DNA of 64,000 bases from Candidatus Bathyarchaeota archaeon. Its GTDB lineage: Archaea > Thermoproteota > Bathyarchaeia > Bathyarchaeales > Bathycorpusculaceae. Position numbers and translations under genes: made by a program. Positions 23,608-37,277 of the stretch are shown here, in pieces (position 1 is the stretch's first letter; each line of letters opens with the position of its first letter). Below the pieces are notes generated by a model. The model saw nothing but the letters and a program-made list of their open reading frames with translations. It was not told the DNA's origin and did not search any database. Where the stretch lies: assembly GCA_963770935.1 (NCBI GenBank), contig CAVYRJ010000009.1:64001-128000 (forward strand), in the 5' to 3' direction.

Positions 23608-25138
23608 AAGCATGACAAACAAAACCTCAAGAACCATCCGAATTTTTGATACCACATTAAGAGACGGGGAACAAACCCCCGGAGTTTCTTTAACAGCCGA
23701 CGACAAAATTGAGATAGCCCGCCAACTAAGTAAACTAGGCGTTGATGTTATCGAAGCAGGTTTCCCAAGCTCATCGGAGGGCGAACGCAAAGTCGTCAAA
23801 GACATAGCAAAACTTGGCTTAACCTCGGAAATTTGTGCATTATCACGCGCAACAAGAAAAGACATAGATGCAGCACTCGCCTGCGATGTCAGCTTAATCC
23901 ATGTCTTCATCCCGACCTCTCCAGTCCAAATGAAATATGCCGTCAACTTGACAGAGGAGCAGGTGTTAGCTTCAGCGGTGGACTCGATTGAATATGTTAA
24001 GAAGCATGGCGTAAAATGCGAGTTTTCACCAATGGATGCCACCCGCAGCGAGCTGCCATTCCTAAAAAAAGTCTGCAAAGCCGCACAGGACGCAGGCATG
24101 GACACGCTAAACGTTCCCGATACCGTAGGCATCATGATTCCTAAGACCACCTCCAAACTAGTTGAAGACCTAAAAACCGTTGTCTCCGTGCCAATAAGCA
24201 TACACTGCCACGACGACTTTGGTTTGGCAGTTGCAAACAGTTTAGCTGCAGTTGAGGCAGGTGCAGCACAAGTTCACGTCGCTGTCAACGGCTTAGGCGA
24301 ACGAGCAGGCAACGCTTCACTAGAAGAGGTCGTTATGGCGTTGCATATGATTTACAAGTACAAAACTGGCGTAAACACACGCTTACTCTACAGTACCTCG
24401 CGACTGGTTGCAGCCTTAACAGGCATTACAGTGCAAGCTAACAAAGCAATTGTCGGCGAGAACGCTTTTGCCCACGAATCAGGCATCCACACAAGAGGCG
24501 TAACAGAGAAACCATTAACATTTGAGCCAATAAACCCAGAACTAGTTGGGCGCACAAGGAAACTGGTCGCTGGAAAGTTGGCGGGAACCCGAGGCATTAA
24601 AGCTGGACTTGAAGAAATCGGCATTCACCCAACGGAGGAGCAACTAAAAGAAATCGTCCAGCGCGTCAAAGAATTGGGTGACAAAGGCAAAATGGTCACA
24701 GACGCCGACTTAATAGCTTTAACCTCAGCTGTTATGGGTGAAGTTGTTGGGGAAGAAAAAATCGTTGACCTATGCGACATGGCAGTTGTAACAGGCATCA
24801 AAGTTATCCCAACCGCTTCCGTGCGTTTAGTCTTGAACGGCAAAGAATACGTTGCCGCTGAAACAGGAGTTGGACCCGTAGACGCAGTGCTTAAAGCCAT
24901 CCAGAAGTTAACCAGCAGCATCGAAAACATCCGCCTAAGCGAATATCGCCTTGAAGCTATAACGGGAGGATCCAACGCAGTCGCGGAAGTTGTCATTAAA
25001 GTCGAGGATGAAAAAGGCAACATCGTTAGCGCCAGAGCAGCCAGAGAAGACATCGTTATGGCATCTGTTGAAGCGATGATAAACGGCATAAACAAACTCT
25101 TGCTAAAGAACCATCAAAAGCAGGGAAACAAAAAGTGA
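23600..25138 (+). CDS. leuA: 2-isopropylmalate/citramalate synthase with LeuA regulatory domain
   Basis: DTTLRDGEQ, HCHDDFG, GERAGN, HESGIH, C-terminal GVGPVDA allosteric domain. Confidence 0.88.
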   Translation: MAESMTNKTSRTIRIFDTTLRDGEQTPGVSLTADDKIEIARQLSKLGVDVIEAGFPSSSEGERKVVKDIAKLGLTSEICALSRATRKDIDAALACDVSLIHVFIPTSPVQMKYAVNLTEEQVLASAVDSIEYVKKHGVKCEFSPMDATRSELPFLKKVCKAAQDAGMDTLNVPDTVGIMIPKTTSKLVEDLKTVVSVPISIHCHDDFGLAVANSLAAVEAGAAQVHVAVNGLGERAGNASLEEVVMALHMIYKYKTGVNTRLLYSTSRLVAALTGITVQANKAIVGENAFAHESGIHTRGVTEKPLTFEPINPELVGRTRKLVAGKLAGTRGIKAGLEEIGIHPTEEQLKEIVQRVKELGDKGKMVTDADLIALTSAVMGEVVGEEKIVDLCDMAVVTGIKVIPTASVRLVLNGKEYVAAETGVGPVDAVLKAIQKLTSSIENIRLSEYRLEAITGGSNAVAEVVIKVEDEKGNIVSARAAREDIVMASVEAMINGINKLLLKNHQKQGNKK

Positions 25139-25947
25139 AAGTAACCTATCAGGGCGAAACAGGCGCCTACAGCGAAATGGCTGTCTTCAAGTTTTTCGGC
25201 AGCAAAGCAGAGCCTATTCCCTGCAAAGATTTCCGAGAGGTCTTCGAATCCGTTAAAACAGGTACGGTTCCTAACGGCGTGGTTCCCATTGAGAACTCCA
25301 TTGAAGGCAGCGTCAACCAAAACTACGATTTATTCCTTGCTTACGACCTCAAAGTCTGCGGTGAAGTCGCAGTGAAACTTGCCCACGTCTTAATCGCTAA
25401 TTCCCAAACCAAACTTGACGACGTCCAAACAGTCTATTCTCACCCCCAAGCGCTGGCGCAATGCCGCAGCTACCTTGAAAAGCACAAGTGGGAAATCATC
25501 CCCGCATACGACACGGCTGGAGCAGCCAAAGCCATCAAAGAAAAAAAGCTTTTCAACGCCGCAGCCATCGCAAGTGAAAAAGCCGCCGACCTCTACGGCA
25601 TGAAAATTCTTGCCCGAGACATCGCCGATAACCCGTCAAACTACACGCGGTTTCTTGTCCTCTCACATGAAGATGCAGCGCCAACTGGAGACGACAAAAC
25701 TTCAATCATATTCTCAGCTAAGCATGCCCCTGGCACTTTGTACCATGTTCTTGGAGAGTTTGCGTCAAGAAACATCAACCTGACAAGAATCGAATCCAGA
25801 CCCACAAAAACCACCGCTTGGCAATACAACTTCTACCTTGACTTTGAGGGTCATAGAACCGAAAAACGCTGCGCTGAAGCAGTGCAAGCGCTAGAAAAGT
25901 ATGCTACTTTCGTGAAAATTCTGGGATCGTACCCCAGAGCAATCTAA
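25135..25947 (+). CDS. pheA: Prephenate dehydratase
   Basis: PIENSIEG, SHPQALAQC, TRF, ESRP ACT motif. Confidence 0.94.
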   Translation: MKVTYQGETGAYSEMAVFKFFGSKAEPIPCKDFREVFESVKTGTVPNGVVPIENSIEGSVNQNYDLFLAYDLKVCGEVAVKLAHVLIANSQTKLDDVQTVYSHPQALAQCRSYLEKHKWEIIPAYDTAGAAKAIKEKKLFNAAAIASEKAADLYGMKILARDIADNPSNYTRFLVLSHEDAAPTGDDKTSIIFSAKHAPGTLYHVLGEFASRNINLTRIESRPTKTTAWQYNFYLDFEGHRTEKRCAEAVQALEKYATFVKILGSYPRAI

Positions 25948-26080: not shown

Positions 26081-26953
26081 CTATTTTTCTGTTGATTCTA
26101 GCATTTTATACATGTTTTCGTAGGATTCTACGAAATCGCTGTCGGATTCCTTTAGCCTCTTCTTTAGCTGTTCCATGCGCTCAACGATAGCCTTATTGTC
26201 TTTGCTTTTGATTAGGCTAAGCAGCTCTTGGGCTTTAGCCATAAAAGTGTCCTCGATTTTTCCCAGTTCAGGCAGGTTAGTCTGCACTGCAGCGTAGAGG
26301 TCAGGGGTTTCCAGCGCGGTTGCTTCTGCCAATGTGAAGAGCATTCGGTAGGTTGTGCCAGCTACCTTTTTTGTTTCTGGCAGATTCTTCTGCTCTAGAA
26401 GCGTTTCACAGGCGACTAAGCCAAGGAAATGAGGGAGGCCAAGCACGACTGACATAAGTTCATCGTGTTTTTTGGGTGTCATGATGAAAACATGTGCTTC
26501 TTCCTTTTCCAGCCAATGTTTGAATTTTTCCGCAAACTCCTGTTCCGTAGCGTTCGTAGGGGTTAAGACATAGGCTTTGTGCTTGACGCCGTTGCTTCCC
26601 GGACCAAAAACTGGATGTGTACCCAACACGGTGGCGCCTTTGACATATTGGTGCATGGTTTTGACGGGTGCTTCTTTGATTGAGCAAATATCCATAACCA
26701 CTTGCCCTTCGTGGAGAGACGGGCTAATTGCTTTAACTACCTCTTCCATCGCATTTATTGAGACGCATAGGATAATTTGGTCGGCGTCTTGGACAGCTTC
26801 TTGAAAATTTGTAGTTAGGTCAACCATTAAATCTTTTAGATTTTCAAGTCTCGTTTTTTTCCTATCAGCCAATACCACATCGTAATCTTTTGAGAGGAAA
26901 AATTTGGCGAACCAAATACCCATTTTCCCCGCGCCGATTACGGCAATCCTCAT
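26081..26953 (-). CDS. tyrA: Prephenate dehydrogenase
   Basis: GAGKMG Rossmann motif, DICSIK, HPVFGP, HD…LPH. Confidence 0.92.
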   Translation of the reverse strand: MRIAVIGAGKMGIWFAKFFLSKDYDVVLADRKKTRLENLKDLMVDLTTNFQEAVQDADQIILCVSINAMEEVVKAISPSLHEGQVVMDICSIKEAPVKTMHQYVKGATVLGTHPVFGPGSNGVKHKAYVLTPTNATEQEFAEKFKHWLEKEEAHVFIMTPKKHDELMSVVLGLPHFLGLVACETLLEQKNLPETKKVAGTTYRMLFTLAEATALETPDLYAAVQTNLPELGKIEDTFMAKAQELLSLIKSKDNKAIVERMEQLKKRLKESDSDFVESYENMYKMLESTEK

Positions 26954-28071
26954 TTAGCCGCCTCGCAGATTTTATCTAGACCTTCTTCTATTTGGTCGTC
27001 TGGTGCAGTTAGGGATATCCGGAAGTGTTCGCGGTAGTCGCCAAAAGCTGTGCCTGGAGCTACAGCGACACCTTTGTCGAGTAATTCTAAGGTGAATTTT
27101 TCTGAGTCTAAGCCGTCAAGTTTGGGAAACACATAGAAGGGTGCGTCAGGTTTGGTGAATTTGAAGCCTGCTTCTGAGAGTTTGGTGCTTGCGAGGTCTG
27201 CGCGTTTTTTGTATTTGGCTTTGATTTTGGACGCTATTTGCTTTTGTAGTTCTAATCCTTTTAGCGCGGCGTCTTGGATAAAGAGTGGCACGTTGTTTAT
27301 TGTGATTTGGTTCAGTTTGGTTATATTATCAACTAGGGGTTTGTTGGTGATTACGTAGCCGACTCGCCAACCTGTCATACTGAAGGTTTTAGAGAACCCA
27401 TTTGACAGGATATGTTTGCAATCGCCGTCGTAGTCGATGATACTTTTTGTTTTAGTGAAAGCTATTGTCCCATAAACCTCATCGGAGAGTATGGTTACGC
27501 CTTTTTTGTTTGCAATTTCCATTATGCCATCGAGGGTTTTGGTGTTAATCAGTTTGCTTGTGGGGTTGTTGGGGTTGTTGAGGATAATCATGCGGGTGTC
27601 TTTGTCAATTAGGCTCTCCAGCTTATCGATGTCTATATTCCAGTCGTTCTCAAACTCGGTTCGCAGCAGTTTAGTTTTGGCGCCTAAACTTTTGGCGATT
27701 AAATCGTAAGCTGTCCAATAAGGAGTAGGAATAATGACATTTCCGCCGCCCTTCATCATTAAAAACATCGTGGCAAATATGCCCCATTTAGATCCAGGTG
27801 TAATAACAACATTTTCCACTTTAACACCGTGCAGTTCAGCGAGTTTCTGACGAAGTTTATTCTCGCCGTAAGAAGAAGAATACTTGGTTCTGCCCGTCTT
27901 CATAGATGCGTATGCGGCTTCCACTATTTCAGGCGGCGTTGCCAAGTCTGGGTCGCCAAGGTTTAAGCGGATTATTTTTTTTCCTTCACTTTCAAGTTTG
28001 AGGGCTTTCTCGTTTATCTCGTAGAGCATCTTTGGACTCTCCGTTAAGAGTTCTTTATTCTTGAACGGCAC
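26950..28071 (-). CDS. Class I/II PLP aminotransferase (aromatic/aspartate)
   Basis: NNPNNPT, SDEVY, GFSKTFSMTGWRVG. Confidence 0.92.
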   Translation of the reverse strand: MPFKNKELLTESPKMLYEINEKALKLESEGKKIIRLNLGDPDLATPPEIVEAAYASMKTGRTKYSSSYGENKLRQKLAELHGVKVENVVITPGSKWGIFATMFLMMKGGGNVIIPTPYWTAYDLIAKSLGAKTKLLRTEFENDWNIDIDKLESLIDKDTRMIILNNPNNPTSKLINTKTLDGIMEIANKKGVTILSDEVYGTIAFTKTKSIIDYDGDCKHILSNGFSKTFSMTGWRVGYVITNKPLVDNITKLNQITINNVPLFIQDAALKGLELQKQIASKIKAKYKKRADLASTKLSEAGFKFTKPDAPFYVFPKLDGLDSEKFTLELLDKGVAVAPGTAFGDYREHFRISLTAPDDQIEEGLDKICEAAK

Positions 28072-28315
28072 TGCACATATTAACTATTTCGCGGTAAACT
28101 CGTTCAATTTGAGCAGGATCAAGCTGACATTGGACAGATTTGTCCTTTATGCGTCTGTAAACTTCATTTTCCCTTGATGAATCGCGTATTGGCATGTCCT
28201 GCCTTTTCTTCGATTCACCGATGGCTTTGCAAACTCTAACTCTTTCGCACAAAGCCTTGAGGACTTCGTCGTCGATTTCATCTACCCTTTTTCTCAGCTT
28301 TTGGATTTCATCCAT
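28055..28315 (-). CDS. aroQ: Chorismate mutase type II (AroQ)
   Basis: LR-x-x-VD-x-ID…R…IG-x-x-K…D-x-x-RE motif. Confidence 0.9.
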   Translation of the reverse strand: MDEIQKLRKRVDEIDDEVLKALCERVRVCKAIGESKKRQDMPIRDSSRENEVYRRIKDKSVQCQLDPAQIERVYREIVNMCSAVQE

Positions 28316-28317
28316 GT

Positions 28318-29421
28318 TTAGTGCTCCTTGAGGACTTTGGCTATGTAGCCAGCACGGATCAGGTGATCAGCTAAGGTTATGGCAACTGCCGCTTCGACTG
28401 CGGGTACGGCTTTTGGAACAACGCATGGATCATGTCTGCCCTTAACGTTCAAAGCTACATTCTCCATAGAGGATAGGTTAACAGTTTTTTGTTCCTTAGC
28501 AATCGAGGGCGTAGGCTTTATCGCCACACGAATCATGATCGGCATACCACTGGATAAGCCGCCTAAAACTCCGCCGGCATATTCCGTTGACGTGATAACT
28601 TCTCCATTCTTCAGGAGAAATGCATCGTTATTCTCTGAACCCCTAAGCTCAGCAACCTTAAAACCTGCGCCAAACTCGACACCCTTAACCGCTGGAACAG
28701 CAAACAGAGCTTTAGCTAAATCAGCATCCAACGAATCAAACAATGGCTCACCTATCCCAACTGGCATGTTAAACGCGATGCATTCGATCACTCCACCAAG
28801 GCTATCACCTGCTTTTCGGGCTTCGATTATTGCTTCTTCCATCTTCTCTGCGCAGGCTAAGTCGGGACATCTTGTTGTGGCAGCATTTTTGTTTTTGCGG
28901 ATTTCTGCAGCACTAAACTTTTTGTCAGTTTTAACTTTGCCAATCGATTGTGTATAGGCCAAAATGTCGATGTCATATCTGTTTAGGAGCTTTTTGGCTA
29001 TGGTTCCTGCCATTATTAGGGCAACTGTGACTCTGCCTGAGAAGCGTCCGCCGCCACGGTAGTCGTTGAAGCCGCCGTACCTTACGCGGGCTGGGTAATC
29101 TGAGTGCCCCGGTCTTGGCAGGTCCTTAATGGCTTCGTAGTCGCTAGAGTTGGTATCCTTATTTTCCACCATCAAAGCGATTGGTGCGCCTGTTGTTAAG
29201 CTGTTAAAAACTCCGCTGAGAATTTTTGCAAAATCCTTTTCGACACGTGCCGAAACAATTTTAGTTTCTGCTGGAACTCTTCGGTCAAGTTCCTCTTGGA
29301 AATTTTTTTCGGAGAGCGGCAACCCTGCTGGACAGCCATCCACGACTACGCCGACGACTTTGCCATGGCTCTCGCCAAACGTTGTAATAATGAATTCTTT
29401 ACCTATCGAATTTCCCGCCAA
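28318..29421 (-). CDS. aroC: Chorismate synthase
   Basis: TFGESHG, PRPGHSD, RGGGRFSGR, KPTPSI, GRHDPC. Confidence 0.96.
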   Translation of the reverse strand: MAGNSIGKEFIITTFGESHGKVVGVVVDGCPAGLPLSEKNFQEELDRRVPAETKIVSARVEKDFAKILSGVFNSLTTGAPIALMVENKDTNSSDYEAIKDLPRPGHSDYPARVRYGGFNDYRGGGRFSGRVTVALIMAGTIAKKLLNRYDIDILAYTQSIGKVKTDKKFSAAEIRKNKNAATTRCPDLACAEKMEEAIIEARKAGDSLGGVIECIAFNMPVGIGEPLFDSLDADLAKALFAVPAVKGVEFGAGFKVAELRGSENNDAFLLKNGEVITSTEYAGGVLGGLSSGMPIMIRVAIKPTPSIAKEQKTVNLSSMENVALNVKGRHDPCVVPKAVPAVEAAVAITLADHLIRAGYIAKVLKEH

Positions 29422-29426
29422 CTAAG

Positions 29427-30698
29427 TCAGCTCCTAACTGTTTTAGATGAGTGAAGAACTGTCGGATAAGACTTTCTGACGCACTGAGCATTTTGAATTG
29501 TGGTTTCTCCCTTGGCTCCTAATGCGGCAACTGCGCAAGCCATAGCTATTCGGTGGTCATTGTGAGGATCTATGGCTACGCCGTGTAAGGGTGAGCCGCC
29601 CTGAATGATTAAGCCGTCGTCAGTAATGGTTACTTTCGCGCCCATCTTTGTTAACTCAAGGTAAAGCGATTCGAGACGGTCAGATTCTTTAAGCCGGAGT
29701 CTACGAGCCCCAAAAATGTGAGAAATACCCTTCGCATAACATGCAAGGACGACTATGGCTGGGACAAGATCAGGAATATTCTTCGCATCAACTTCTACAG
29801 GTTTAAGTAAACTTTCTGAACCTTCAATCTCAACCCTGTCTTCGCAAACTTTCCCGTTTATCCCCATATGTTTTAAAATACCCAAAATTGCTTTGTCGCC
29901 TTGAACACTGCCATAGTCAAGGTTGTTAATCTGGACTTTAGAGTTGATTATTGCTGCAGCAGCGAACAGAAAGGCGGCTGAGGAAAAGTCTCCTGGAACC
30001 CTGCTGTCTGAGGGTGTATAGGTTTGGTTTGCTGGGATGTGAATGTGGTTTTCGTGTGCAGGCACTTTAACTCCATGATTAGCTAAAACAGTCTGAGTCA
30101 TCTTTACGTAATCCGCAGACTCCAACGGCGAACTAAGCATTATCTCCGTGTCGACACTTGCCATTGGGCAAGCAAACATCAAACCAGAAATAAATTGCGA
30201 ACTCACATCACCCGGAATGGAAGTCTCTCCTCCTACAATTCCCCCTCCCGAAACAAAAACTGCATCTCTTTCGCCCAGCTTTCCAAAATGAACTTTGGTG
30301 CCAAGTTCCTTGAGGCTTGCCAGCAAAGGTTCCACAGGGCGCTTTTCAATGGAGCCCTTAAACACCAACGTCGAAGAACCAATTGCCAAAGCAGCTACGG
30401 GAATCATGAAACGCAACGTTGCCCCTGATTCACCACAATCAATAGGCTCCTTTGCGCCTTTAAGCGGAATTGCACCTTTGATGGTCCAGCAATCTTCAGC
30501 AATTGTAATTATTGCTCCCAAAGCAGTAACAGCACGGAGCGTGGCTTCGGTATCCTCGGAAAGAAGAGGGTTAGAAACTTTAGAAATCCCGTTAGCGAGG
30601 GCGGCAGCAATGACCATTCTTTGCGTATAAGATTTGGAGGGGGGCGCACAAACTTGACCAATCAACTTTTCAGTTTTTTTAACTAATACATCAGTCAT
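29427..30698 (-). CDS. aroA: EPSP synthase (indel near 29460 alters the last residues)
   Basis: PPSKS, GESGATLR, SSQFISG, KESDR, DHRIAM. Confidence 0.95.
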   Translation of the reverse strand: MTDVLVKKTEKLIGQVCAPPSKSYTQRMVIAAALANGISKVSNPLLSEDTEATLRAVTALGAIITIAEDCWTIKGAIPLKGAKEPIDCGESGATLRFMIPVAALAIGSSTLVFKGSIEKRPVEPLLASLKELGTKVHFGKLGERDAVFVSGGGIVGGETSIPGDVSSQFISGLMFACPMASVDTEIMLSSPLESADYVKMTQTVLANHGVKVPAHENHIHIPANQTYTPSDSRVPGDFSSAAFLFAAAAIINSKVQINNLDYGSVQGDKAILGILKHMGINGKVCEDRVEIEGSESLLKPVEVDAKNIPDLVPAIVVLACYAKGISHIFGARRLRLKESDRLESLYLELTKMGAKVTITDDGLIIQGGSPLHGVAIDPHNDHRIAMACAVAALGAKGETTIQNAQCVRKSYPTVLHSSKTVRS

Positions 30699-30700
30699 TG

Positions 30701-31571
30701 CTATAGCACCTTAGCTTTCTCGCTGTTCAACTTTGCCTGCAACACTTCACCATCGTATCTTAGCAGGGCAGCTTCTACGGAAGCAATTTTATCTTTGGAT
30801 ACGACAACTGTCACTGCTGGTCCTTTTCCGCAAAGCCCCGCTGCAACAGCTCCAGCAGCCAATGCATCAATGGCGATTGCTGGATTAAGGTTAGAGGCTG
30901 AAGAATAGATTAAGCCATTTAGCGTTAATGCCTCCCAAACTCTCCCCTCCAAAACCCTGTCAAACGCGATTTCTACAAGAGGCTTGACGGATCTGAGCCT
31001 GCCTACGTTTGAGTTAGCAGTATAGGCTTTCTGTGGCGGTGCATGGAATAACACCACCAAATCATCTGGTAATGGCAACTGCTTGATTATTTCCCGACTC
31101 AGAGTTATCAGTGATTACAATGCCACCAAAGTATGAAGCGCAAGCATCATCAAAAGCACCCGTCACGGTAACGTTTGCGTCAAAAGCTGCTTCGACACCA
31201 AGCTTGACGATTTCTATGTCATCGAGTGTTTTCTTTAATGCCGCGATTGTTGCTAAAGCAGTTGCGTTTGCAGCAACACTGCTGCTTTTTAGACCTCTGG
31301 CGATAGGAATGTTGGACTGGGTTTTTATTTTTGCTCCAAAACTCTTCTCTAAACCGAAGAGCTGCAGAACTCTTGTCACGGTTTTTTCTATTAAAAGGGA
31401 GCTTTCTGTTGGGTCAGAGGCAATCTCTCCGCTGATAAATCCTACCTCATTGGTTAGTTTGACTTCTGCCTTTGTCCACAAGTCAACTCCAAACGCTGCA
31501 CCCTTCCCTAAAGCAATCGCGTTTACGATTGTTGCAGCCCCATGCGCTATAGCAGTAGCTTTGCCAGCCAA
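30701..31571 (-). CDS. aroK: Archaeal GHMP-type shikimate kinase (one indel near 31100)
   Basis: GAATIVNA, P-x-x-x-GLKSSS, TGAFDDA, GLCGKGPA. Confidence 0.9.
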
Positions 31572-31573
31572 GT

Positions 31574-32433
31574 CTACACCTTCTGCAAATGTTTAAGCGC
31601 TGCGTGCCTCATGACTTCAACAGGCGCAGGTTTCCCCGTCCAGATTTCAAACGATGCAGCACCTTGATAAATCAACATCTCAACCCCGCTTACAACTTTG
31701 GCTCCTACAGCTTGTGCTTCTTTAACCAGTTTGGTCTCTATGGGGTTGTAAACTATATCCATTACCGCTAAATTTGGACCTTAACAATTTAGGTGCTACA
31801 ACGCTTTCTTCTGACTTTGGGTTTCATTCCGATTGATGTGGCGTTAATTAGAATGTCTGAGTCTTGTAGGTTCTGCTGGATTTCCTTTGGTGAAAGTGAA
31901 CCCGCAAATATTTTTTTGTTAGCTAATTTTTCCAGCAGTTTAGCCAGGTCTTGAGCTGGTTTTAGGGTTCGGTTTAAAACTGCAAGCTCATCGGTTTCCT
32001 TAGCCATCGAGTACGCTATGGCTCTTGCAGCTCCGCCTGCACCAAGCAACAAAACTTTTCTGCCCTTAAGCTCCACACCGTTTTCTCGTAGAGCCTTTAG
32101 CGCTCCAACTCCATCAGTATTGAACCCAAAAAGTTTGCTTTCTTTGTTCAGGACAGTGTTGACCGAATTTATTATTTGTGCAGACAAGTCAACTCTATCT
32201 AGAAATTTTAGGATCGCACTCTTATGAGGCATCGTTACGTTTAGTCCGCGTATGTTTAGTGCGCGCATTCCATTTGCTGCGTTTTCAAGTTCTGCAGGTT
32301 TTACTTTGAAGGCTATAAACGAGTAGTCAAGTTTAAGGGCGTTAAAAGCGGCATTATGCATAATGGGGCTTAAGGTGTGTTCTATTGGATCACCGATGAC
32401 TCCACAAATCCTTGTTTTTCCAGATATATCCAT
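31574..32433 (-). CDS. aroE: Shikimate dehydrogenase (one indel near 31800)
   Basis: HTLSPIMHN, NVTMPHK, NTDG, GAGGAA, DIVYNP, MLIYQG. Confidence 0.92.
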
Positions 32434-32434
32434 T

Positions 32435-33118
32435 TTATTTTATCCCCAAAAGAGTATAAGCAGATCTCATTTCTCGGATACTCATTTGCCCTGTTGCGGT
32501 TTCATCGCCCGCATCTAGCGAAGCGAAAGTGAAGAAGGCTCCAAAGACCGGTGAGAGAAGCCTAGAGACTTTGCCGGGTTCACCCATGCAAAAACAAACT
32601 ATCTTGGCCTTGCTCGATGCGAAAGAAACAAAGCTCAATGCGGGGAGGGTGTCTTCAACTTGTTTGGCGGTTGTAACAATCTTGCATATGCTGGCTCCAC
32701 TGGCAATTTCCTCGTCAAGGATTTTCTCCATTGCTGAAACGTTGAGTGCCCCATCGAATTTGTGGTAGGAAGCGATTGGCTTAGCCCCCAGCAACTTAAG
32801 TTGGCTGATTGATTCTTTATGCTTTGGGCTTAACAAATCAACATCAACGTACTCAAAACCATTTTTGGCAGCGTTTACTAGTGTTTGTTGCCGTTCAGAC
32901 TCTGTTCCACCAAAGAAACCTGTTTCGCTTCGAAGTTTATTTGTTGCGATTAGGGGTGTTCTTGTACTTGCAGAAATATTTGATAGTTGGCAAGAATTTT
33001 CTAAACAGTCTAACCTAACTTCGATGAGGTCTGCTTTGGCTTTCTCGGATTTCTCAATCAGATTTAACGCTTCAAAATTGTTTTTGGGGAGAATCGAAAC
33101 ACAGATTCTCGCGGTCAC
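32435..33118 (-). CDS. aroD: Type I 3-dehydroquinate dehydratase
   Basis: EVRLD, SYH, KIV, MGE-x-G-x-x-SR, GQ motifs. Confidence 0.9.
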   Translation of the reverse strand: MTARICVSILPKNNFEALNLIEKSEKAKADLIEVRLDCLENSCQLSNISASTRTPLIATNKLRSETGFFGGTESERQQTLVNAAKNGFEYVDVDLLSPKHKESISQLKLLGAKPIASYHKFDGALNVSAMEKILDEEIASGASICKIVTTAKQVEDTLPALSFVSFASSKAKIVCFCMGEPGKVSRLLSPVFGAFFTFASLDAGDETATGQMSIREMRSAYTLLGIK

Positions 33119-34156
33119 TTTTCGATCACCGTTTCTTCAGGCACAGATATGCCGAAGTGTCTTCCTCCCTTCGCCGCTAAATGCACAAGGACTTCATCAT
33201 TTGGTTTTAATTCAGTGACTGGTTTGGAATCTTTGGGGAGTGACTAGGCGGATGGTTTCTGCATTCTGAAGGATTGTTTTTATTTTTGTGTTGCCTGCTT
33301 GGGCTTCAATTAGAATGAGGGGGCGAAACTCGATTTTGGATCTGCCAACGTTTGTGACCCTGACGTTGCCTTCTCGGCTGACTATTAGGACTTCGTCTCC
33401 TGCTTTGAGCTCTGAAAGGTATCGCGTGCTCTGGGCAGAGGTTAAGGTGTAGTGAGATGCCGGTCCAGCGTTCACTCGGAAGGGTCTAGACTGCACATAG
33501 GGGTTTTCGTTGACTTCAGCTTCAACAAGAAAAAACCCTGCAGATTGGCATCCGACAAGCATTCCTTCGCCGGGTACCATCAAGTCGACCGTGTCCACGC
33601 AAACTCTTGCTCCTGAGCCAATCGGCTTAATGGATAAAATCTTCGCTGATGTCAACGTCATTTTCGGAGATTGAGCCTTGATGATTTTGATGGTTTTTTC
33701 CAGTTCTGTTGAGTTTCCAGTTTTAAGCAGCACTCCATCAGTTCCTAATTCAAGAGCTTCCAAAACTATCTTCGCATCCTCGGAAGTGTTGACTTCGGCG
33801 ATAAGAGCGCTTTTTCCTCTGCCTTTGGCAATTAAGTTTTCAAGGGGGATCACTCGCCAATCAAGACAGTTTATAATTACATAGTCAACTCCAAGTTCTG
33901 CAGCTTTAGCTGCTTTGTTCTCGTCTTCTTTACCCTGAATTGTAACTCGAAGAGCCGTTTTTTTGCCCTCTTTCTTTAGCTGAGCAAGCTTTTTCTCGTT
34001 TAAATCTGAAAGAAAAGTTATGAATAATTTTCCGTTGCGGTTGCTGGCTTGGTTGTTTTCGAGAATTACATCAACGTTTTCAATAGCAAGGCTAAGTAAA
34101 CCTTCCTTTTCTTGAGTGGTTGCGTTTTGCGCGATTTCTAGCCAGAGTTCTTTCAA
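33115..34156 (-). CDS. 3-dehydroquinate synthase II (AroB', indel near 33235)
   Basis: W-x-x-IPLEN, RVCVDT, RPFRVNAG, LQNAETIR; the shifted frame continues …GGRHFG…EK* and overlaps the aroD start (GTGA). Confidence 0.9.
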
Positions 34157-34944
34157 CGTTTTTCACCGAGAATTCTAAGCGCTTGCTCAACCGATGCATC
34201 ATGATGGACAATGGCGGAGAGCGCTTTTGAAATTTGAGTTGGGCTGTCACATTGGAATACATTGCGTCCGATTGAAAGCCCAGCTGCGCCTGCTTTCAAA
34301 GCGTCACTTGTTGTTTGAAGCACTTCCTCTAAGGATTTGCATTTTGGTCCACCCGCGATGACTACTGGGACCGGACAGCTTTCGACAACTGTCTTGAAAG
34401 TTTCGATGGTGCCTGTGTAGTTTGTTTTGATTATGTCTGCGCCAAGTTCAGCGCCGATTCTGGCGGCATGCGCTACCATTTCGGGTGCATGTTCGTTTGG
34501 GATTTTGGGTCCACGCGGGTACATCATCGCCAATAATGGGATTCCTAAGGCATCACATTCCTCGGCGACTTTACCCAAGTTTTGGAGCATTTTATCTTCA
34601 TCTTGTGCGCCAACGTTGACGTGTACAGAGACCGCGTCTGCACCTATCCGTATGGCTTCCTGTAGGCTGCATACTTGGACTTTGGCGTTTATGTTTGGGC
34701 TAAGGTTTGACATGCCAGATAACATAACGATTAATCCTGCATCTCCAGTGTCGACTCGTTTGGCGATGCCTTTGTGTACAAGGATTGCGTCGACTCCGCC
34801 TTTAACAAGCTTGTCGGTTATAGTTTGCATGTTGGTTATGCCTTGGATAGGTCCAACGGTTACGCCATGGTCCATTGGCACGATAACTGTGCGGTTATCT
34901 TGCTGCATGATTCTTTTTAGTCTGCGATTTTTTCCTGTGTTCAT
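34153..34944 (-). CDS. 2-amino-3,7-dideoxy-D-threo-hept-6-ulosonate (ADH) synthase, class I aldolase (AroA')
   Basis: PMDHG, MYPRG, ELGADIIKT, AGG, GRNVFQ; adjacent to DHQ synthase II. Confidence 0.9.
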   Translation of the reverse strand: MNTGKNRRLKRIMQQDNRTVIVPMDHGVTVGPIQGITNMQTITDKLVKGGVDAILVHKGIAKRVDTGDAGLIVMLSGMSNLSPNINAKVQVCSLQEAIRIGADAVSVHVNVGAQDEDKMLQNLGKVAEECDALGIPLLAMMYPRGPKIPNEHAPEMVAHAARIGAELGADIIKTNYTGTIETFKTVVESCPVPVVIAGGPKCKSLEEVLQTTSDALKAGAAGLSIGRNVFQCDSPTQISKALSAIVHHDASVEQALRILGEKR

Positions 34945-34952
34945 TTTTCCAC

Positions 34953-36188
34953 CTAGTGTGTTTTAAGTGAGTTTTTAATTAACTTTAACGCTTTTTCTTT
35001 ATCATTCCAATCCACAAAAAGCAAAATGCTCGATGTAATGGTTAAGATTCCAGAGATGTTTATGCCGTTGACTCTTAGGTCTTCGCTGATTTTGCCAATG
35101 ATGCCATGCGTTTCCTCTAAACCGACACCGCTGGTTTTTATGAAGACAAGATCTTTTTTGACAGCCATAGCGATTGTTTCTTTGTTGTTGGTTGTTATGT
35201 TATGGATTTGGTTGAAGAGAGCATCGATGTTTTTTTCCTGTGGCACGTAGAGAATGATTGAGTTTGTGTTCATTGACATGCCAAGCAGCATCGAGTTTTC
35301 TCTTACTTTCTCCACCATCTCTGTGATGACTTGGGGGTTGGCGGACATGCCGTTTCCTATTACAGTGACCTCAGCAACAGGGGTTGGATGAGCGATTTCA
35401 GCGTCAAGTTCAGTTGCTAATCCGCCTGTGATTATTGTACCTGCTCGACTCAAGTCTCCATAGGCATTGCTGATGACTTTTACATCGATGTCTTTGGGTT
35501 TGTATTTGAGGGCTTTGCTATGTATGAATTTCGCGCCTGAATCCGCTAAGCCAACAAGGGTGTTAACGTTGATTTCAGAAAGCCGTTTAGGTGAGGCGAT
35601 AATTTTTGGGTCACTAGACATTATGCCATCTGCATCAGTTACCAGAACAACTAGGTTTGCGTTTATCCCTTGTGCTAATATGAATGCAGTAGTATCACTT
35701 CCTCCTCTACCAAGGGTAGTAATTTTGCCGTCTTTAGTTTTGCCGAGGAACCCAGCGATGACGGGGATAGTACCTTTCTCAATAAGAGGAAGGACGCATT
35801 CTTTGATATTTTTATCGCACTCTTTGAGCATTGGGTTTGCGTTTTGGAATGAATTATCAGTTATAATTGGCCACTTATCATCCATTGGATCGAAGTAGCA
35901 TGCGTCAACACCATTATTCTTCAGTGCAGCGGCAAAAATACGCACGCTGGTTCGTTCACCCATTGAGAGAATGTCATCTAAATCATGTTTCTCCAATTTT
36001 CCGTTCGAAGTGTTCTTCGCAGTAGTCATGAGGACGTCGGTTGTTTTGCCCATAGCAGAAACTACAACAGCGATTCTTGTGCCTTTTTTAGCTTCATTAA
36101 CTACGGAAACAACTGCTTTAAGGAGCCTCTCGTGATCGGATAGGCTAGAGCCACCGAATTTAACCACAATTTTTTTGTTAGCTAACAT
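34953..36188 (-). CDS. lysC: Aspartate kinase
   Basis: VVKFGGSS, VVSAMG, TLGRGGSDTTA, C-terminal ACT-like region. Confidence 0.88.
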   Translation of the reverse strand: MLANKKIVVKFGGSSLSDHERLLKAVVSVVNEAKKGTRIAVVVSAMGKTTDVLMTTAKNTSNGKLEKHDLDDILSMGERTSVRIFAAALKNNGVDACYFDPMDDKWPIITDNSFQNANPMLKECDKNIKECVLPLIEKGTIPVIAGFLGKTKDGKITTLGRGGSDTTAFILAQGINANLVVLVTDADGIMSSDPKIIASPKRLSEINVNTLVGLADSGAKFIHSKALKYKPKDIDVKVISNAYGDLSRAGTIITGGLATELDAEIAHPTPVAEVTVIGNGMSANPQVITEMVEKVRENSMLLGMSMNTNSIILYVPQEKNIDALFNQIHNITTNNKETIAMAVKKDLVFIKTSGVGLEETHGIIGKISEDLRVNGINISGILTITSSILLFVDWNDKEKALKLIKNSLKTH

Positions 36189-36207
36189 TTCAGTACACCC
36201 GTGTTTC

Positions 36208-36294
36208 GCCCAGAACCGTTCCCCAAAAATTTTTCAGTTCTGGGCTTAAGGAAAATAGTAATAATAAAAGTAGTAGTCGAAGCTAAGGAACGGT
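36208..36294 (-). promoter_or_regulatory. Attenuator-like alternative RNA pairings of the aro leader
   Basis: GCCCAGAACUG pairs with CGGUUCUGGGC; ACCGUUCCUUAG in the leader ORF pairs with the overlapping UUGGGGAACGGU. Confidence 0.7.
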
Positions 36295-36332
36295 GATGCG
36301 TTGGTTTCTTTCTTGCTATTGCAATTGAGCAT
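36246..36332 (-). CDS. Phe/Tyr-rich leader peptide MLNCNSKKETNASPFLSFDYYFYYYYFP
   Basis: Translated by hand. 10 Phe/Tyr among the last 14 sense codons, 8 consecutive; stop 57 nt before the aspartokinase ATG. Confidence 0.8.
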   Translation of the reverse strand: MLNCNSKKETNASPFLSFDYYFYYYYFP

Positions 36333-36368
36333 TTTGCTTCGGACCAGTGAAAGAGTCATTGCAGAGAA

Positions 36369-36384
36369 AATATAAGCGTTTCGG
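36369..36384 (-). promoter_or_regulatory. BRE/TATA promoter of the aro operon leader
   Basis: Minus strand CCGAAACG-CTTATATT; implied start site near 36346. Confidence 0.6.
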
Positions 36385-36452
36385 ATTCAGACTAAAGTTT
36401 GAACGCCGTCTATTGCTCTTAATTTAGTGTTAGTTAATATCGAAAACTAAAT

Positions 36453-37277
36453 TTAGGCAGTTATTTTTGGCGGAGGACGCACACGCCGTCTACCAAGCTT
36501 CACACGTAACGCTATGCGGTACAGTTTCCGTAGCGACTTAACTAATTGTTCAACAGTGGGCGCATTTGAGTAAATAAGTGGTATGTGTTCGTATTCAGCT
36601 ATTCGTATGGCTTCCTCATCAGGCACTGTTTTGTGGAAAACTACTATGCGTGGTTTGAGGCTACTTACACGCACAATCATCATGGGCAAACATCCAGCTT
36701 CAACGCTAGTGAAAATCAATGCCCGCTCGGTTGATGCCCCAAAAAGCTGCGTGTACTCCGAGCCTGAGTAAGCCTCAACCGCTTTTCTGCTATCGATAAC
36801 GGTATATCCGTTGACTTCTTTTACGAATTTTTCTTTGCAAGCCACCACTTCGCCCCCGATAGCCTTACACAAGTACTCCACCCTGACGGGTATGGGAAAC
36901 TCGCGGAGGTCCACAACCGCCATGCTAGGTGAACTGGTTAGTTTAGCGAATTCCCGTATGAAACGGCTGCCTTTGCCCTCGTCAATATGCAGAAGCGAAA
37001 GCACGAATCTGCGGATAAATTTGGCGCCTGGACTTTTCCTTCTGCAGCTTTCATAGTCACTAATGACTGAAGAGGATAATCCCATCGCTTCGGAGAGGCT
37101 GATTTGGGAAACAGCGAAGAGTTCACGCCACTTCTTCATAGTTGAGCCTGGTTTGCTTGAAAGAATTATTTCTCCAGCGATTCTTCTCGCTAAAACTTCC
37201 CTCAGACCAGGCGATATTGACACGAAATAATTCCTCTCTCTTGCACCTTTCCCTTCAAAGTTGAGGTATAAAACCAT
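36453..37277 (-). CDS. Archaeal XRE-type HTH transcriptional regulator (COG1709-like)
   Basis: IAGEI…PG-x-x-MKKWRELF…SQ…ISDYES-x-RRKSPG, plus C-terminal ERALIFT domain; true start probably somewhat downstream. Confidence 0.82.
   Translation of the reverse strand: MVLYLNFEGKGARERNYFVSISPGLREVLARRIAGEIILSSKPGSTMKKWRELFAVSQISLSEAMGLSSSVISDYESCRRKSPGAKFIRRFVLSLLHIDEGKGSRFIREFAKLTSSPSMAVVDLREFPIPVRVEYLCKAIGGEVVACKEKFVKEVNGYTVIDSRKAVEAYSGSEYTQLFGASTERALIFTSVEAGCLPMMIVRVSSLKPRIVVFHKTVPDEEAIRIAEYEHIPLIYSNAPTVEQLVKSLRKLYRIALRVKLGRRRVRPPPKITA

What the first reader, a model, noticed from the sequence alone, without database searches (positions are those of the whole stretch)
36189..36384. Candidate ribosome-mediated attenuator with a Phe/Tyr leader peptide controlling an archaeal shikimate operon
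Seen on the minus strand: BRE/TATA (36384-36369), then ATG at 36332 encoding MLNCNSKKETNASPFLSFDYYFYYYYFP*, with 6 Tyr and 4 Phe, eight in a row, using both synonymous codons. Directly after the stop is an 11-bp stem GCCCAGAACUG/CGGUUCUGGGC with UUUUU in the loop. A segment inside the ORF just before the control codons (ACCGUUCCUUAG, 36294-36283) can pair with UUGGGGAACGGU (36226-36215), which overlaps the 3' arm, so the structures are mutually exclusive. The first gene starts 57 nt after the stop, behind a GGGTG SD-like site. Established: this is the logic of bacterial pheL/trpL/hisL attenuators, and the control codons match the operon products (chorismate mutase, tyrA, aminotransferase). Inference: stalling on Tyr/Phe codons masks the upstream segment and favours the post-stop hairpin. 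No hairpin-plus-U-tract terminator follows, so the output may be archaeal U-tract/FttA(aCPSF1) termination or translation initiation control. I know of no well-established archaeal example.
Basis: partly seen in the sequence, partly recalled or inferred. Interest (0 to 1): 0.92.

Follow-up and report, generated by a model that had tools for sequence, protein, structure and literature searches.

The report
Archaeal Tyr/Phe leader-peptide attenuator candidate
A tiny upstream gene packed with tyrosine and phenylalanine codons, followed at once by an RNA hairpin, sits in front of the aromatic amino-acid synthesis genes of many Bathyarchaeia and related archaea, and it looks like the ribosome-based amino-acid sensor so far established only in bacteria.

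Summary
On the minus strand a BRE/TATA element is followed by a 28-codon ORF (36332-36246) ending in YYFYYYYFP. An 11-bp hairpin starts directly after its stop, and SD GGGTG and the aspartokinase start (36188) of an 11-gene shikimate/Tyr operon follow.

It is not chance. All 64 distinct orthologous loci, the window included, carry an aromatic-rich uORF. So do 41 of 79 loci sampled across Bathyarchaeia (42 on the sense strand against 2 on the control strand) and 11 of 12 loci from other classes of the phylum. Their nucleotide sequences are unrelated. A stable hairpin starts within one base of the stop in 43 of 51 leaders.

SD sequestration and pairing of the aromatic tract with the RBS are not supported. 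Oligo-U tracts are not universal.

Best reading: a ribosome-stalling Tyr/Phe leader peptide. Stalled ribosomes let the hairpin fold; terminating ribosomes hold it open. The sensor is well supported. The output (FttA/oligo-U termination, translation or RNA stability) is unresolved. I found no archaeal precedent in seven literature searches.

The parts
36366..36384 (-). BRE/TATA-like promoter element (CCGAAACGCTTATATTTTC)
   Evidence: Sequence. The TTATATTTT core is at least 90% conserved in the 61-sequence genus alignment. A comparable TATA-like element lies about 42-50 nt before the leader ATG in many, though not all, of the leaders from other families. Its promoter function is inferred.
36336..36345 (-). 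P1 5' strand (GGTCCGAAGC), probably at or near the 5' end of the mRNA
   Evidence: The TTCGAAGC core is invariant or nearly so in 61 sequences. RNAalifold pairs it with the S-F-D codons. The start site is inferred from the usual archaeal TATA-to-start spacing (established knowledge). One 154-nt contig of a run filed as metatranscriptomic (flagged 'RNA? probably DNA') ends at 36345; that is a weak hint only.
36246..36332 (-). Leader ORF, 28 codons plus stop (MLNCNSKKETNASPFLSFDYYFYYYYFP*)
   Evidence: The frame is open in 60 of 60 genus sequences, while the +1 frame has stops in 27 and the +2 frame in 54. An aromatic-rich uORF is present in 64 of 64 orthologous loci.
36274..36284 (-). P1 3' strand (AGCTTCGACTA, the Ser-Phe-Asp codons just before the aromatic run)
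   Evidence: RNAalifold gives 7 pairs. The variation is mostly wobble-compatible one-sided change (for example U-A to U-G in 8 sequences), with 3 broken cells, and there is no two-sided covariation.
36252..36275 (-). Aromatic control-codon run: TAC TAC TTT TAT TAT TAC TAT TTT (YYFYYYYF)
   Evidence: In 57 distinct genus peptides the aromatic fraction is 0.82-0.98 at positions -2, -3 and -5 to -8 from the stop, 0.37 at -4, and 0.09 in the rest of the peptide.
36208..36245 (-). P2 hairpin: 11-bp stem, 16-nt loop with A5-T5 (T-run at 36225-36229), starting at the first base after the stop
   Evidence: Fold. The stop-to-hairpin distance is 0 nt in 51 and -1 in 5 of 60 sequences. One-sided changes are wobble-compatible on the sense strand only. 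Two-sided compensatory changes occur at stem positions 8 and 9 in sister genera. The hairpin occurs only once in the genome.
36186..36200 (-). Shine-Dalgarno-like GGGTG (36200-36196) and aspartokinase start codon (36188-36186)
   Evidence: The SD-like site lies 6 nt after P2 in 17 of the 20 genus sequences tested.
26081..36188 (-). Controlled operon: aspartate kinase, ADH synthase, DHQ synthase II, DHQ dehydratase, shikimate dehydrogenase, GHMP-type kinase (in two ORFs), EPSP synthase, chorismate synthase, chorismate mutase, aminotransferase, prephenate dehydrogenase
   Evidence: Pfam and NCBIfam hits. That these genes form one transcription unit is inferred from shared strand and short gaps.

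Best explanation
This is a cis-acting leader ORF at the 5' end of the aspartokinase-shikimate operon mRNA. It reports the supply of charged tRNA-Tyr and tRNA-Phe through the speed of the ribosome that translates it.

Sequence of events (inferred). Transcription starts about 25 nt after the TATA box, close to GGTCCGAAGC. A first ribosome loads on the AUG before the P1 3' strand is made. When Tyr or Phe is scarce, that ribosome stalls on codons -11 to -5 from the stop. The first base after the stop stays free, so hairpin P2 folds. When supply is good, the ribosome runs to the stop. Because P2 begins at the very next base, the ribosome must hold the P2 5' arm inside its mRNA channel, and P2 stays open.

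Consequence (inferred). Polarity requires that stalling switches the operon on, so folded P2 is the ON state. It would shield the untranslated gap and, in this genus, the oligo-U run in its loop. Open P2 would be the OFF state, exposing naked U-rich RNA behind the polymerase to archaeal termination or cleavage (FttA/aCPSF1 or intrinsic oligo-U termination). In some other families it would free a pyrimidine-rich 3' arm that can pair with the SD.

Shown here: the parts, their order, their conservation and their spacing. Inferred: translation, stalling, polarity and the output step.

My odds: sensor role about 0.8. P2 as the element toggled by ribosome position about 0.6. Termination or cleavage as the output in this genus about 0.35.
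For: Composition matches the operon's products. The peptide has 10 aromatic residues in its last 14, and the operon makes chorismate, prephenate and Tyr.

Conservation. All 64 distinct orthologous loci (AK at least 52% identical) carry an aromatic-rich uORF ending 52-86 nt before AK; 0 of 3 paralogous AK loci do. The frame is open in 60 of 60 sequences although the N-terminal half varies in sequence (24-29 codons in all); the other frames are closed in 27 and 54. Across the class, 41 of 79 loci have such a uORF, with 42 on the sense strand and 2 on the control strand. Examples are NPYYYYYYYCFF*, MFFDFFYYYFYFE* and FTFSGYWYTFNY*. In other classes of the phylum 11 of 12 loci have one.

Position. 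The aromatic run always sits at the C-terminal end. A hairpin starts at -1 to +1 nt from the stop in 43 of 51 leaders; mean z against dinucleotide shuffles is -2.6, and z is below -2 in 36 of 51. P2 shows compensatory changes: A-U to C-G and C-G to G-C in 4 hairpins of one sister genus, and C-G to U-A in 1.

Promoter and rarity. In the genus a conserved TATA-like element precedes the leader ATG by about 42 nt, and a TATA-like element lies roughly 42-50 nt upstream in many of the leaders from other families. This is the densest aromatic small ORF of 1727 in the genome.

Oligo-U. T-runs of 6 or more occur at 0.37 per kb on the coding sense strand and 1.8 per kb downstream of stops. The 12-22-nt P2 loop holds a T-run of 6 or more in 35 of 60 genus sequences and of 5 or more in 48 of 60.
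Against: There is no experimental datum. No start site, ribosome footprint or 3' end is available; public runs gave only short contigs.

No conserved structure alternative to P2 was found in this genus.

Predicted SD accessibility does not differ between ribosome states: 0.37/0.37/0.38 in 60 genus sequences and 0.42/0.43/0.38 in 59 leaders.

The oligo-U run is not universal. It is 3 or shorter in 5 of 60 genus loops. In the 41 class-level leaders it reaches 5 or more inside the hairpin in only 6, and 4 or more after it in 9. T5 also occurs 11 times inside the operon's own coding sequence, so T5 alone cannot be a strong terminator.

Stalls at the last two or three aromatic codons would themselves open part of P2.

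Within the genus, P1 and P2 are almost invariant, so most pairs carry no covariation evidence. Sequence-specific recognition by a protein cannot be excluded.

I found no comparable leader before the trp, his or ilv genes of this genome, so this is not a general strategy of the organism.

Thirty-eight of 79 class-level loci lack the dense aromatic uORF. Most carry other upstream motifs.

Relatives are not independent samples.
Confidence: 0.6

Rival explanations
1. The leader is an arrest peptide. The nascent aromatic peptide, inside the exit tunnel, senses a free ligand (Phe, Tyr, prephenate or chorismate) and stalls the ribosome at or near the stop, in the manner of TnaC. It would not report tRNA charging.
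For: The peptide shows more sequence pattern than a bare codon run: S-F-[DEG]-Y-x-F-Y-Y in the genus, F-[SG]-G-Y in other families, and a frequent Pro or Gly-Pro before the stop. Families without the dense run keep a short conserved motif with single Phe and Tyr codons. The stop abuts the hairpin, so a ribosome held at the stop would hold P2 open, and repression by abundant product would follow directly.
Against: Leaders from different families share only aromatic richness at the C-terminal end, not a motif. Runs such as seven Tyr codons in a row are what codon-supply sensors look like. The S-F-D codons are also explained by their pairing in P1. No tool here can test ligand binding.
Confidence: 0.13
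2. Regulation is by RNA or DNA elements read by a protein, and the uORF is secondary. P1 and P2, or the inverted repeats as DNA operators, would be bound by a regulator such as the HTH-like protein encoded just upstream. The uORF would serve only for translational coupling or mRNA stability.
For: The P1 and P2 stem sequences are almost invariant across 61 genus sequences, while the flanks and the loop vary. A 274-aa ORF with a weak HTH_3 match (E = 0.0023, below the Pfam cut-off) lies directly upstream on the same strand. The trp operon of the same genome appears to use operator-like repeats and has no leader.
Against: The P2 spacer varies from 12 to 22 nt, which does not suit a dimeric DNA operator. 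One-sided changes in P2 keep G-U pairs on the sense RNA only. In other families the hairpin has unrelated sequences at the same place. The aromatic ORF persists where P1 and P2 sequences do not, so the ORF is the conserved core.
Confidence: 0.1
3. The ORF encodes a functional aromatic-rich micropeptide, for example a small subunit, a membrane peptide or a precursor, that happens to be co-transcribed with the operon.
For: The ORF is conserved in length (24-29 codons in the genus) and has a conserved C-terminal pattern.
Against: The N-terminal half is free to vary. Between families nothing is kept except aromatic richness next to the stop. The tight stop-hairpin-SD spacing has no explanation under this reading. 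At 28 aa the peptide is below the length limits of the homology tools, so no homology search was made.
Confidence: 0.05

Closest known systems
Bacterial Phe/Trp/His-type ribosome-mediated transcription attenuators (pheL-pheA, trpL; Rfam leader families). The description of these systems is recalled from established knowledge.
   Same: A short leader ORF is the first cistron of an amino-acid biosynthetic operon. It carries a run of codons for the operon's own end products, with the stop codon next to RNA structure. The expected polarity is that stalling switches the operon on.
   Different: The host is an archaeon, whose polymerase does not use hairpin-dependent intrinsic terminators. No conserved terminator/antiterminator pair exists in this genus. 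No U-tract follows the hairpin here. The control codons run to within one codon of the stop, and the hairpin starts at the next base. No Rfam family matches; the only hit has E = 6.5 and is unrelated.
Polycysteine leaderless short-ORF attenuators of mycobacteria (Canestrari et al., bioRxiv 10.1101/834739; I read the abstract and outline only).
   Same: A short sensory ORF at or near the mRNA 5' end, without a classical terminator, controls downstream operon genes through ribosomes stalled on codons for the pathway's product.
   Different: There, according to the abstract, stalled ribosomes block a structure that sequesters the downstream RBS. Here, pairing of the aromatic tract with the RBS flank is weaker than in codon-permuted controls (mean z +0.58) and random-coding controls (mean z +0.85). 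SD accessibility is also predicted not to change.
tnaC-tnaAB control in E. coli, by Rho-dependent termination (recalled).
   Same: The position of a ribosome at the end of a leader ORF decides whether a factor can reach the RNA just after the stop. FttA/aCPSF1 is the archaeal factor that enforces comparable polarity (recalled).
   Different: tnaC senses free Trp through the nascent peptide and induces a catabolic operon. Here a biosynthetic operon needs the opposite logic, and a stable hairpin rather than a factor loading site follows the stop.
pyrBI-type attenuation, in which a translating ribosome physically prevents hairpin formation (recalled).
   Same: The ribosome itself is the competitor of the hairpin, rather than an alternative RNA helix.
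   Different: In pyrBI the hairpin is a terminator and ribosome occupancy gives read-through. With that assignment the polarity here would be wrong, so P2 is more likely a protective, ON-state structure.

Membership tests
Ribosome-mediated leader-peptide attenuator (functional class) | A short ORF lies between the promoter and the first gene of an amino-acid biosynthetic operon. | tested here: met
   ORF at 36332-36246, between the TATA element (36384-36366) and the AK start at 36188. The operon was identified.
Ribosome-mediated leader-peptide attenuator (functional class) | The ORF is enriched in codons for the operon's end products, and this enrichment is conserved while the rest of the peptide drifts. 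| tested here: met
   10 of the last 14 residues are aromatic. Such a uORF is found in 64 of 64 orthologous loci, 41 of 79 class-level loci and 11 of 12 loci from other classes. Note that the class-level set was selected by the aromatic threshold itself.
Ribosome-mediated leader-peptide attenuator (functional class) | The leader is translated, and ribosomes stall on the control codons when the amino acid is scarce. | not testable with these tools
   The only indirect evidence is that the frame is kept open in 60 of 60 sequences, against stops in 27 and 54 in the other frames. Public runs gave only short contigs.
Classical trpL/pheL-type transcription attenuator | Mutually exclusive antiterminator and terminator helices are selected by ribosome position. 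| tested here: not met
   The proposed alternative pairing is strong in L001, L005 and L008 only. Cognate pairs average -6.27 and non-cognate -6.02 kcal/mol, p = 0.105. RNAalifold finds only P1 and P2.
Classical trpL/pheL-type transcription attenuator | A hairpin followed by a U-tract (intrinsic terminator) precedes the first structural gene. | tested here: not met
   In the window P2 is followed by GAAACAC, not by U. A U-run of 4 or more follows the hairpin in 9 of the 41 class-level leaders and in 0 of the 10 genus representatives.
Translational attenuation (erm/cat type and the mycobacterial Cys short ORFs) | A structure sequesters the downstream RBS and is opened by the stalled ribosome. 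| tested here: not met
   The SD unpaired probability is the same in the free, stalled and at-stop states. Only family f14 (L122, L125, L136) shows a clear drop when the ribosome sits at the stop. Flank pairing is weaker than in controls. These are thermodynamic predictions only.
Rfam leader families (Phe, Trp, His, Leu, Thr leaders) | A match to the covariance model. | tested here: not met
   cmscan of 35900-36700 at E up to 10 returned one unrelated hit (Histone3, E = 6.5).

The most novel reading that the evidence does not exclude
This would be the first clear case of ribosome-mediated amino-acid attenuation in Archaea. It is old and widespread, found in Bathyarchaeia and in other classes of the same phylum. 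Its architecture is not bacterial. A leader ORF on a short, SD-less 5' UTR ends in Tyr/Phe codons, and its stop codon abuts a hairpin. That hairpin competes with the ribosome itself rather than with an antiterminator helix. It would link translation speed to archaeal, hairpin-independent termination or cleavage (FttA/aCPSF1, oligo-U) or to initiation at the first gene.
Probability: 0.55. Interest if true: 0.9.

Novelty: new variant of a known kind. Interest (0 to 1): 0.85.

Why it matters
Leader-peptide attenuation is a textbook consequence of coupled transcription and translation. To my knowledge, and in the seven library searches made here, it has been established only in bacteria.

Archaea also couple the two processes, but they terminate transcription differently, through oligo-U and the FttA/aCPSF1 factor, without needing a hairpin. 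A conserved, phylum-wide aromatic leader with a fixed stop-hairpin-SD geometry gives a concrete natural test case. It allows asking whether and how an archaeal ribosome can instruct the polymerase or the mRNA's fate.

It would also explain how uncultured Bathyarchaeia regulate the archaeal (aspartate-semialdehyde dependent) shikimate route. And it supplies dozens of natural sequence variants for reporter and in vitro work.

Tried and rejected
1. It is present here (-17.1 kcal/mol) but not conserved. In 60 sequences cognate pairs average -6.27 and non-cognate -6.02 kcal/mol, p = 0.105. The aromatic tract against the same 3' segment gives cognate -4.04 and non-cognate -4.27, p = 0.88. In that script the P1 3' strand was mislocated in 6 sequences, which lengthened their upstream segment. 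I did not rerun it.

2. SD or AUG sequestration that changes with ribosome position. There is no consistent change. Stalled is more open than at-stop by more than 0.2 in 9 of 59 leaders, and the reverse holds in 8.

3. Aromatic tract pairing with the RBS flank below P2, as in the mycobacterial Cys model. The observed energy is weaker than in codon-permuted flanks (mean z +0.58) and random coding flanks (mean z +0.85) in 99 leaders.

4. P2 as a bacterial-type terminator hairpin. Rejected on polarity, since it would form when the ribosome stalls, and because no U-tract follows it in most lineages.

5. Oligo-U as a universal output. Rejected as universal. Kept as a possibility for this genus.

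6. Other leader peptides in this genome. A scan of 1727 intergenic small ORFs gave candidates whose downstream genes, read by eye from their translations (no family search was run on them), do not look biosynthetic. The regions upstream of the trp, hisG and ilv genes show none.

7. A regulon sharing P2. The hairpin occurs once in the genome.

8. Rfam. Nothing relevant.

9. Expression evidence. The look-up of sequencing runs found only runs holding small shares of the stretch (at most 0.28 of its sampled words), all kept as contigs. Laid contigs cover 36196-36345 (X1, no mismatches) and 36167-36335 (X2). Both runs are flagged 'RNA? probably DNA'. Contigs cannot show starts or ends, so this gives no support either way.

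10. The consensus sigma-70/terminator scan found no more than the shuffles and does not apply to archaea.

11. Literature. Seven searches listed no archaeal leader-peptide attenuator. From PMC13675443 and PMC2965389 I saw only the passages that matched my search terms, and neither mentions archaeal attenuation. The library lacks most subscription journals, and supplements were not opened.

Full report
**What is in the window.**
Read on the minus strand, the region holds, in order:
- a BRE/TATA-like element, CCGAAACGCTTATATTTTC (36384-36366);
- GGTCCGAAGC (36345-36336);
- an ATG at 36332 that opens MLNCNSKKETNASPFLSFDYYFYYYYFP, with stop TAA at 36248-36246;
- an 11-bp hairpin that begins at the very next base, with arms at 36245-36235 and 36218-36208 and an A5-T5 tract in its 16-nt loop;
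- GGGTG, 7 nt after the hairpin (36200-36196);
- the ATG of the first long gene at 36188.

The ORF listing reports the frame from an upstream in-frame ATG at 36359. That ATG is not conserved. It also lies only about 10 nt after the TATA box, so it is probably upstream of the transcription start. That last point is an inference from the usual archaeal spacing of about 25 nt.

**Context.**
The genes downstream on the same strand are as follows:
- aspartate kinase (NCBIfam NF005159, above its cut-off);
- ADH synthase (TIGR01949, above its cut-off);
- 3-dehydroquinate synthase II;
- type I dehydroquinase;
- shikimate dehydrogenase;
- a GHMP-type kinase, in two ORFs;
- EPSP synthase;
- chorismate synthase;
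- chorismate mutase;
- a class I/II aminotransferase;
- prephenate dehydrogenase, ending at 26081.

This is the archaeal shikimate route, which depends on aspartate semialdehyde, plus the Tyr branch. Prephenate dehydratase lies convergently on the other strand (25135-25947). Record titles of close relatives name Bathyarchaeia/Bathyarchaeota, some of them Candidatus Bathycorpusculum.

**Is it more than chance?**
In the window's genome I listed 1727 small ORFs that lie in gaps upstream of long ORFs. This one has the densest aromatic window, 9 of 10 residues; the next best has 7.

I collected aspartokinase orthologues from species-representative genomes. After removing 11 duplicates and 3 loci whose aspartokinase match lacks the N-terminal part, 67 distinct loci remained. 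All 64 with an orthologous kinase (52-100% identity, the window included) have an aromatic-rich uORF, with 6-10 aromatic residues in the last 14, ending 52-86 nt before the kinase. None of the 3 loci with a paralogous kinase (35-38% identity) has one.

In 60 genus sequences the leader frame is open in all, the +1 frame has stops in 27, and the +2 frame in 54. The peptide is 24-29 residues long. Its N-terminal half varies freely.

**Beyond the genus.**
I located DHQ synthase II in 138 of 301 Bathyarchaeia genomes and fetched 100 upstream regions. Seventy-nine of them have the kinase and at least 260 nt upstream. Of those, 41 carry a uORF with at least 6 aromatic residues in its last 14, ending 53-84 nt before the kinase. 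With the same criteria the sense strand of these loci gives 42 such ORFs and the opposite strand 2.

The sequences are unrelated at nucleotide level. Examples are ...NPYYYYYYYCFF*, MFFDFFYYYFYFE*, ...FTFSGYWYTFNY* and ...FFGYFYFYYFK*.

In 12 loci from other classes of the same phylum, 11 have one, for example ...MFGYFYFYYFGP* and ...FGFFYGFYFYFYFGP*. Three of these 11 have only 5 aromatic residues in the last 14.

A TATA-like element lies about 42-50 nt before the leader ATG in many of the families. So the leader is the first cistron, on a short 5' UTR with no Shine-Dalgarno site.

The property kept throughout is aromatic richness next to the stop. In 57 distinct genus peptides the aromatic fraction is 0.82-0.98 at positions -2, -3 and -5 to -8, and 0.09 in the rest of the peptide. 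The class-level set was selected by the aromatic threshold, so its profile is partly circular.

That pattern is what a sensor of codon supply predicts. It is hard to reconcile with a functional peptide or with an accidental ORF inside an RNA element.

**RNA structure.**
RNAalifold on 61 genus leaders finds two helices only.

P1 pairs UCGAAGC, 1-4 nt before the AUG, with GCUUCGA, the Ser-Phe-Asp/Glu/Gly codons just before the aromatic run.

P2 is the post-stop hairpin. Both helices are nearly invariant in the genus. None of the 15 pairs shows a two-sided change. Nearly all of the one-sided changes are wobble-compatible on the sense RNA only (C to U opposite G, A to G opposite U); nine cells in all are broken or gapped.

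When sister genera are included (72 distinct hairpins), P2 shows compensatory changes. At stem position 8, A-U becomes C-G in 4. At position 9, C-G becomes G-C in 4 and U-A in 1. The four come from one sister genus, so they represent few evolutionary events.

The strongest structural signal is positional. The hairpin starts 0 nt after the stop in 51 and -1 nt in 5 of 60 genus sequences. Across families with unrelated stem sequences it starts at -1 to +1 in 43 of 51 leaders, with mean z = -2.6 against dinucleotide shuffles. An SD-like site follows within 9 nt or fewer in 54 of 59 leaders, and at 6 nt in 17 of the 20 genus sequences tested. The P2 spacer ranges from 12 to 22 nt, which argues against a dimeric DNA operator.

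**Tests of specific mechanisms.**
- Constrained folding with a ribosome footprint on the aromatic run or on the stop does not change predicted SD accessibility in any consistent way. The exception is family f14, where a ribosome at the stop frees a 3' arm that pairs with the SD.
- Pairing between the aromatic tract and the RBS flank, the mechanism described for mycobacterial poly-Cys short ORFs (abstract), is weaker than in codon-permuted or random-coding controls.
- Oligo-T runs are depleted on the coding sense strand. T-runs of 6 or more occur at 0.37 per kb there, against 1.46 per kb antisense and 1.80 per kb after stops. That is consistent with oligo-U acting as a termination signal in this organism. 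The P2 loop carries a T-run of 5 or more in 48 of 60 genus sequences.
- Against that, 5 of 60 genus loops have a run of 3 or less, other families mostly lack it, and T5 occurs 11 times inside the operon itself.
- In some leaders from other classes (L195-L198, L202), reading the sequences printed by eye, the last leader codons, the segment after the stop and a segment before the SD appear able to pair in mutually exclusive ways, a more classical layout. The constrained folds show the pairing shifting with ribosome position in some of them (clearly in L195) but do not establish it, and I did not test it statistically. The wiring therefore differs between lineages while the sensor is constant.

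**How it most likely works.**
The sensor step is well supported: a ribosome translating the leader slows on Tyr/Phe codons when charged tRNA is scarce. My odds for that are about 0.8.

For the output I reason from polarity. A biosynthetic operon must go up when the ribosome stalls.

A ribosome stalled with its A site on codons -11 to -5 leaves the base after the stop free, so P2 folds. A ribosome on the last codons or the stop must hold the P2 5' arm in its mRNA channel, so P2 is open. Folded P2 is therefore the ON state.

This excludes P2 as a bacterial-type terminator. It fits a shielding role. With P2 open, the RNA between the terminating ribosome and the polymerase is naked. In this genus it is also U-rich, and so accessible to FttA/aCPSF1 or prone to oligo-U termination or cleavage. 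With P2 folded, the gap is structured until the kinase RBS emerges and recruits its own ribosome.

P1 would close the 5' end and the leader AUG after the first ribosome has passed. That would restrict sensing to the pioneer, co-transcriptional round, which also favours a transcriptional decision.

All of this is inference. I put about 0.35 on termination or cleavage as the output in this genus. The remainder is shared between translational control, RNA stability, and something I have not thought of.

**Comparison with what is known.**
The element works like the bacterial pheL/trpL class (recalled knowledge). But two structural features of the classical family were tested here and not met: the alternative helices and the hairpin-plus-U terminator. 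It also matches no Rfam family.

It resembles the mycobacterial poly-Cys short ORFs in having a sensory ORF at the 5' end and no terminator. However, the RBS-sequestering duplex of that system is not predicted here.

Seven full-text searches returned no archaeal leader-peptide attenuator. The library is incomplete, so this is not proof of absence.

**Caveats.**
- All evidence is comparative and thermodynamic.
- Related genomes are not independent samples.
- Genus-level invariance of P1 and P2 leaves room for a protein partner.
- Thirty-eight of 79 class-level loci lack the dense aromatic uORF and show other conserved upstream motifs instead.
- Several operon genes look truncated or split in this assembly. 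Indel errors, also in the A5/T5 run, therefore cannot be excluded.

**Verdict.**
The feature is real and conserved. It is best read as an archaeal ribosome-mediated Tyr/Phe attenuator of non-classical architecture.

Noticed in passing
L121-L183 (for example L127, L140, L141, L145, L147, L148, L157), about 40-150 nt upstream of the aspartokinase gene: Bathyarchaeia families without the dense aromatic uORF carry another conserved upstream ORF or motif with single Phe and Tyr codons in a fixed context, roughly [VIL]-F-[GR]-[GDR]-x-x-[VIL]-Y. Examples are MGDHLFGDGVY... and ...IFGGHIYGDHYWP.... There is also strong nucleotide conservation and often a GGAGG-like core. It may be a second type of leader, or an RNA motif.
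   Followed up: partly
L164, L169, L171-L174 (one genus), upstream of the aspartokinase gene: An 18-codon uORF (MGGHLYWHKPAPETLIQV*) lies inside the loop of a 7-bp helix. The 5' strand of that helix precedes the start, and its 3' strand begins one base after the stop (sequences, read by eye).
   Followed up: no
window 30701-31571 (-), 33119-34156 (-), 31789-32433 (-): The GHMP-type shikimate kinase is split into two overlapping ORFs (169 aa and 125 aa). DHQ synthase II is 314 aa and matches only positions 1-308 of the 344-position family model, whereas relatives have about 340-360 aa, and a 94-nt gap follows it. Shikimate dehydrogenase is only 214 aa. These could be frameshifts or assembly indels.
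   Followed up: no
window 36453-37277 (-): The gene directly upstream of the leader promoter encodes a 274-aa protein. Its only family hit is a weak HTH_3 match (E = 0.0023, below the Pfam cut-off), and it has no NCBIfam hit. It is a possible regulator of the operon.
   Followed up: partly
G000:C8:296723-297180 (outside the window), minus strand: The trp operon of the same genome has no Trp-rich leader. Its upstream region holds a repeated palindromic hexamer next to a TATA-like element, which looks like a repressor operator rather than an attenuator. The comparison with a known Trp repressor box is recalled, not tested.
   Followed up: no
window 25135-25947 (+): Prephenate dehydratase with an ACT domain lies convergent to the end of the operon and is not under the leader, while prephenate dehydrogenase is. 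Yet the leader mixes Phe and Tyr codons.
   Followed up: no
L122, L125, L136 (family f14), post-stop hairpin: The stem of the post-stop hairpin in this family contains the same GCTTCGAA / TTCGAAGC palindrome that forms P1 in the window's genus. There it is followed by U4-5 and then GGAGG. This may be coincidence or a shared recognition motif.
   Followed up: no
window 36196-36345: A 154-nt contig from a run filed as metatranscriptomic (flagged 'RNA? probably DNA') matches without mismatch. It ends at 36345, the first base of GGTCCGAAGC, which is the start site I infer from the TATA box. Contigs cannot show true ends.
   Followed up: partly
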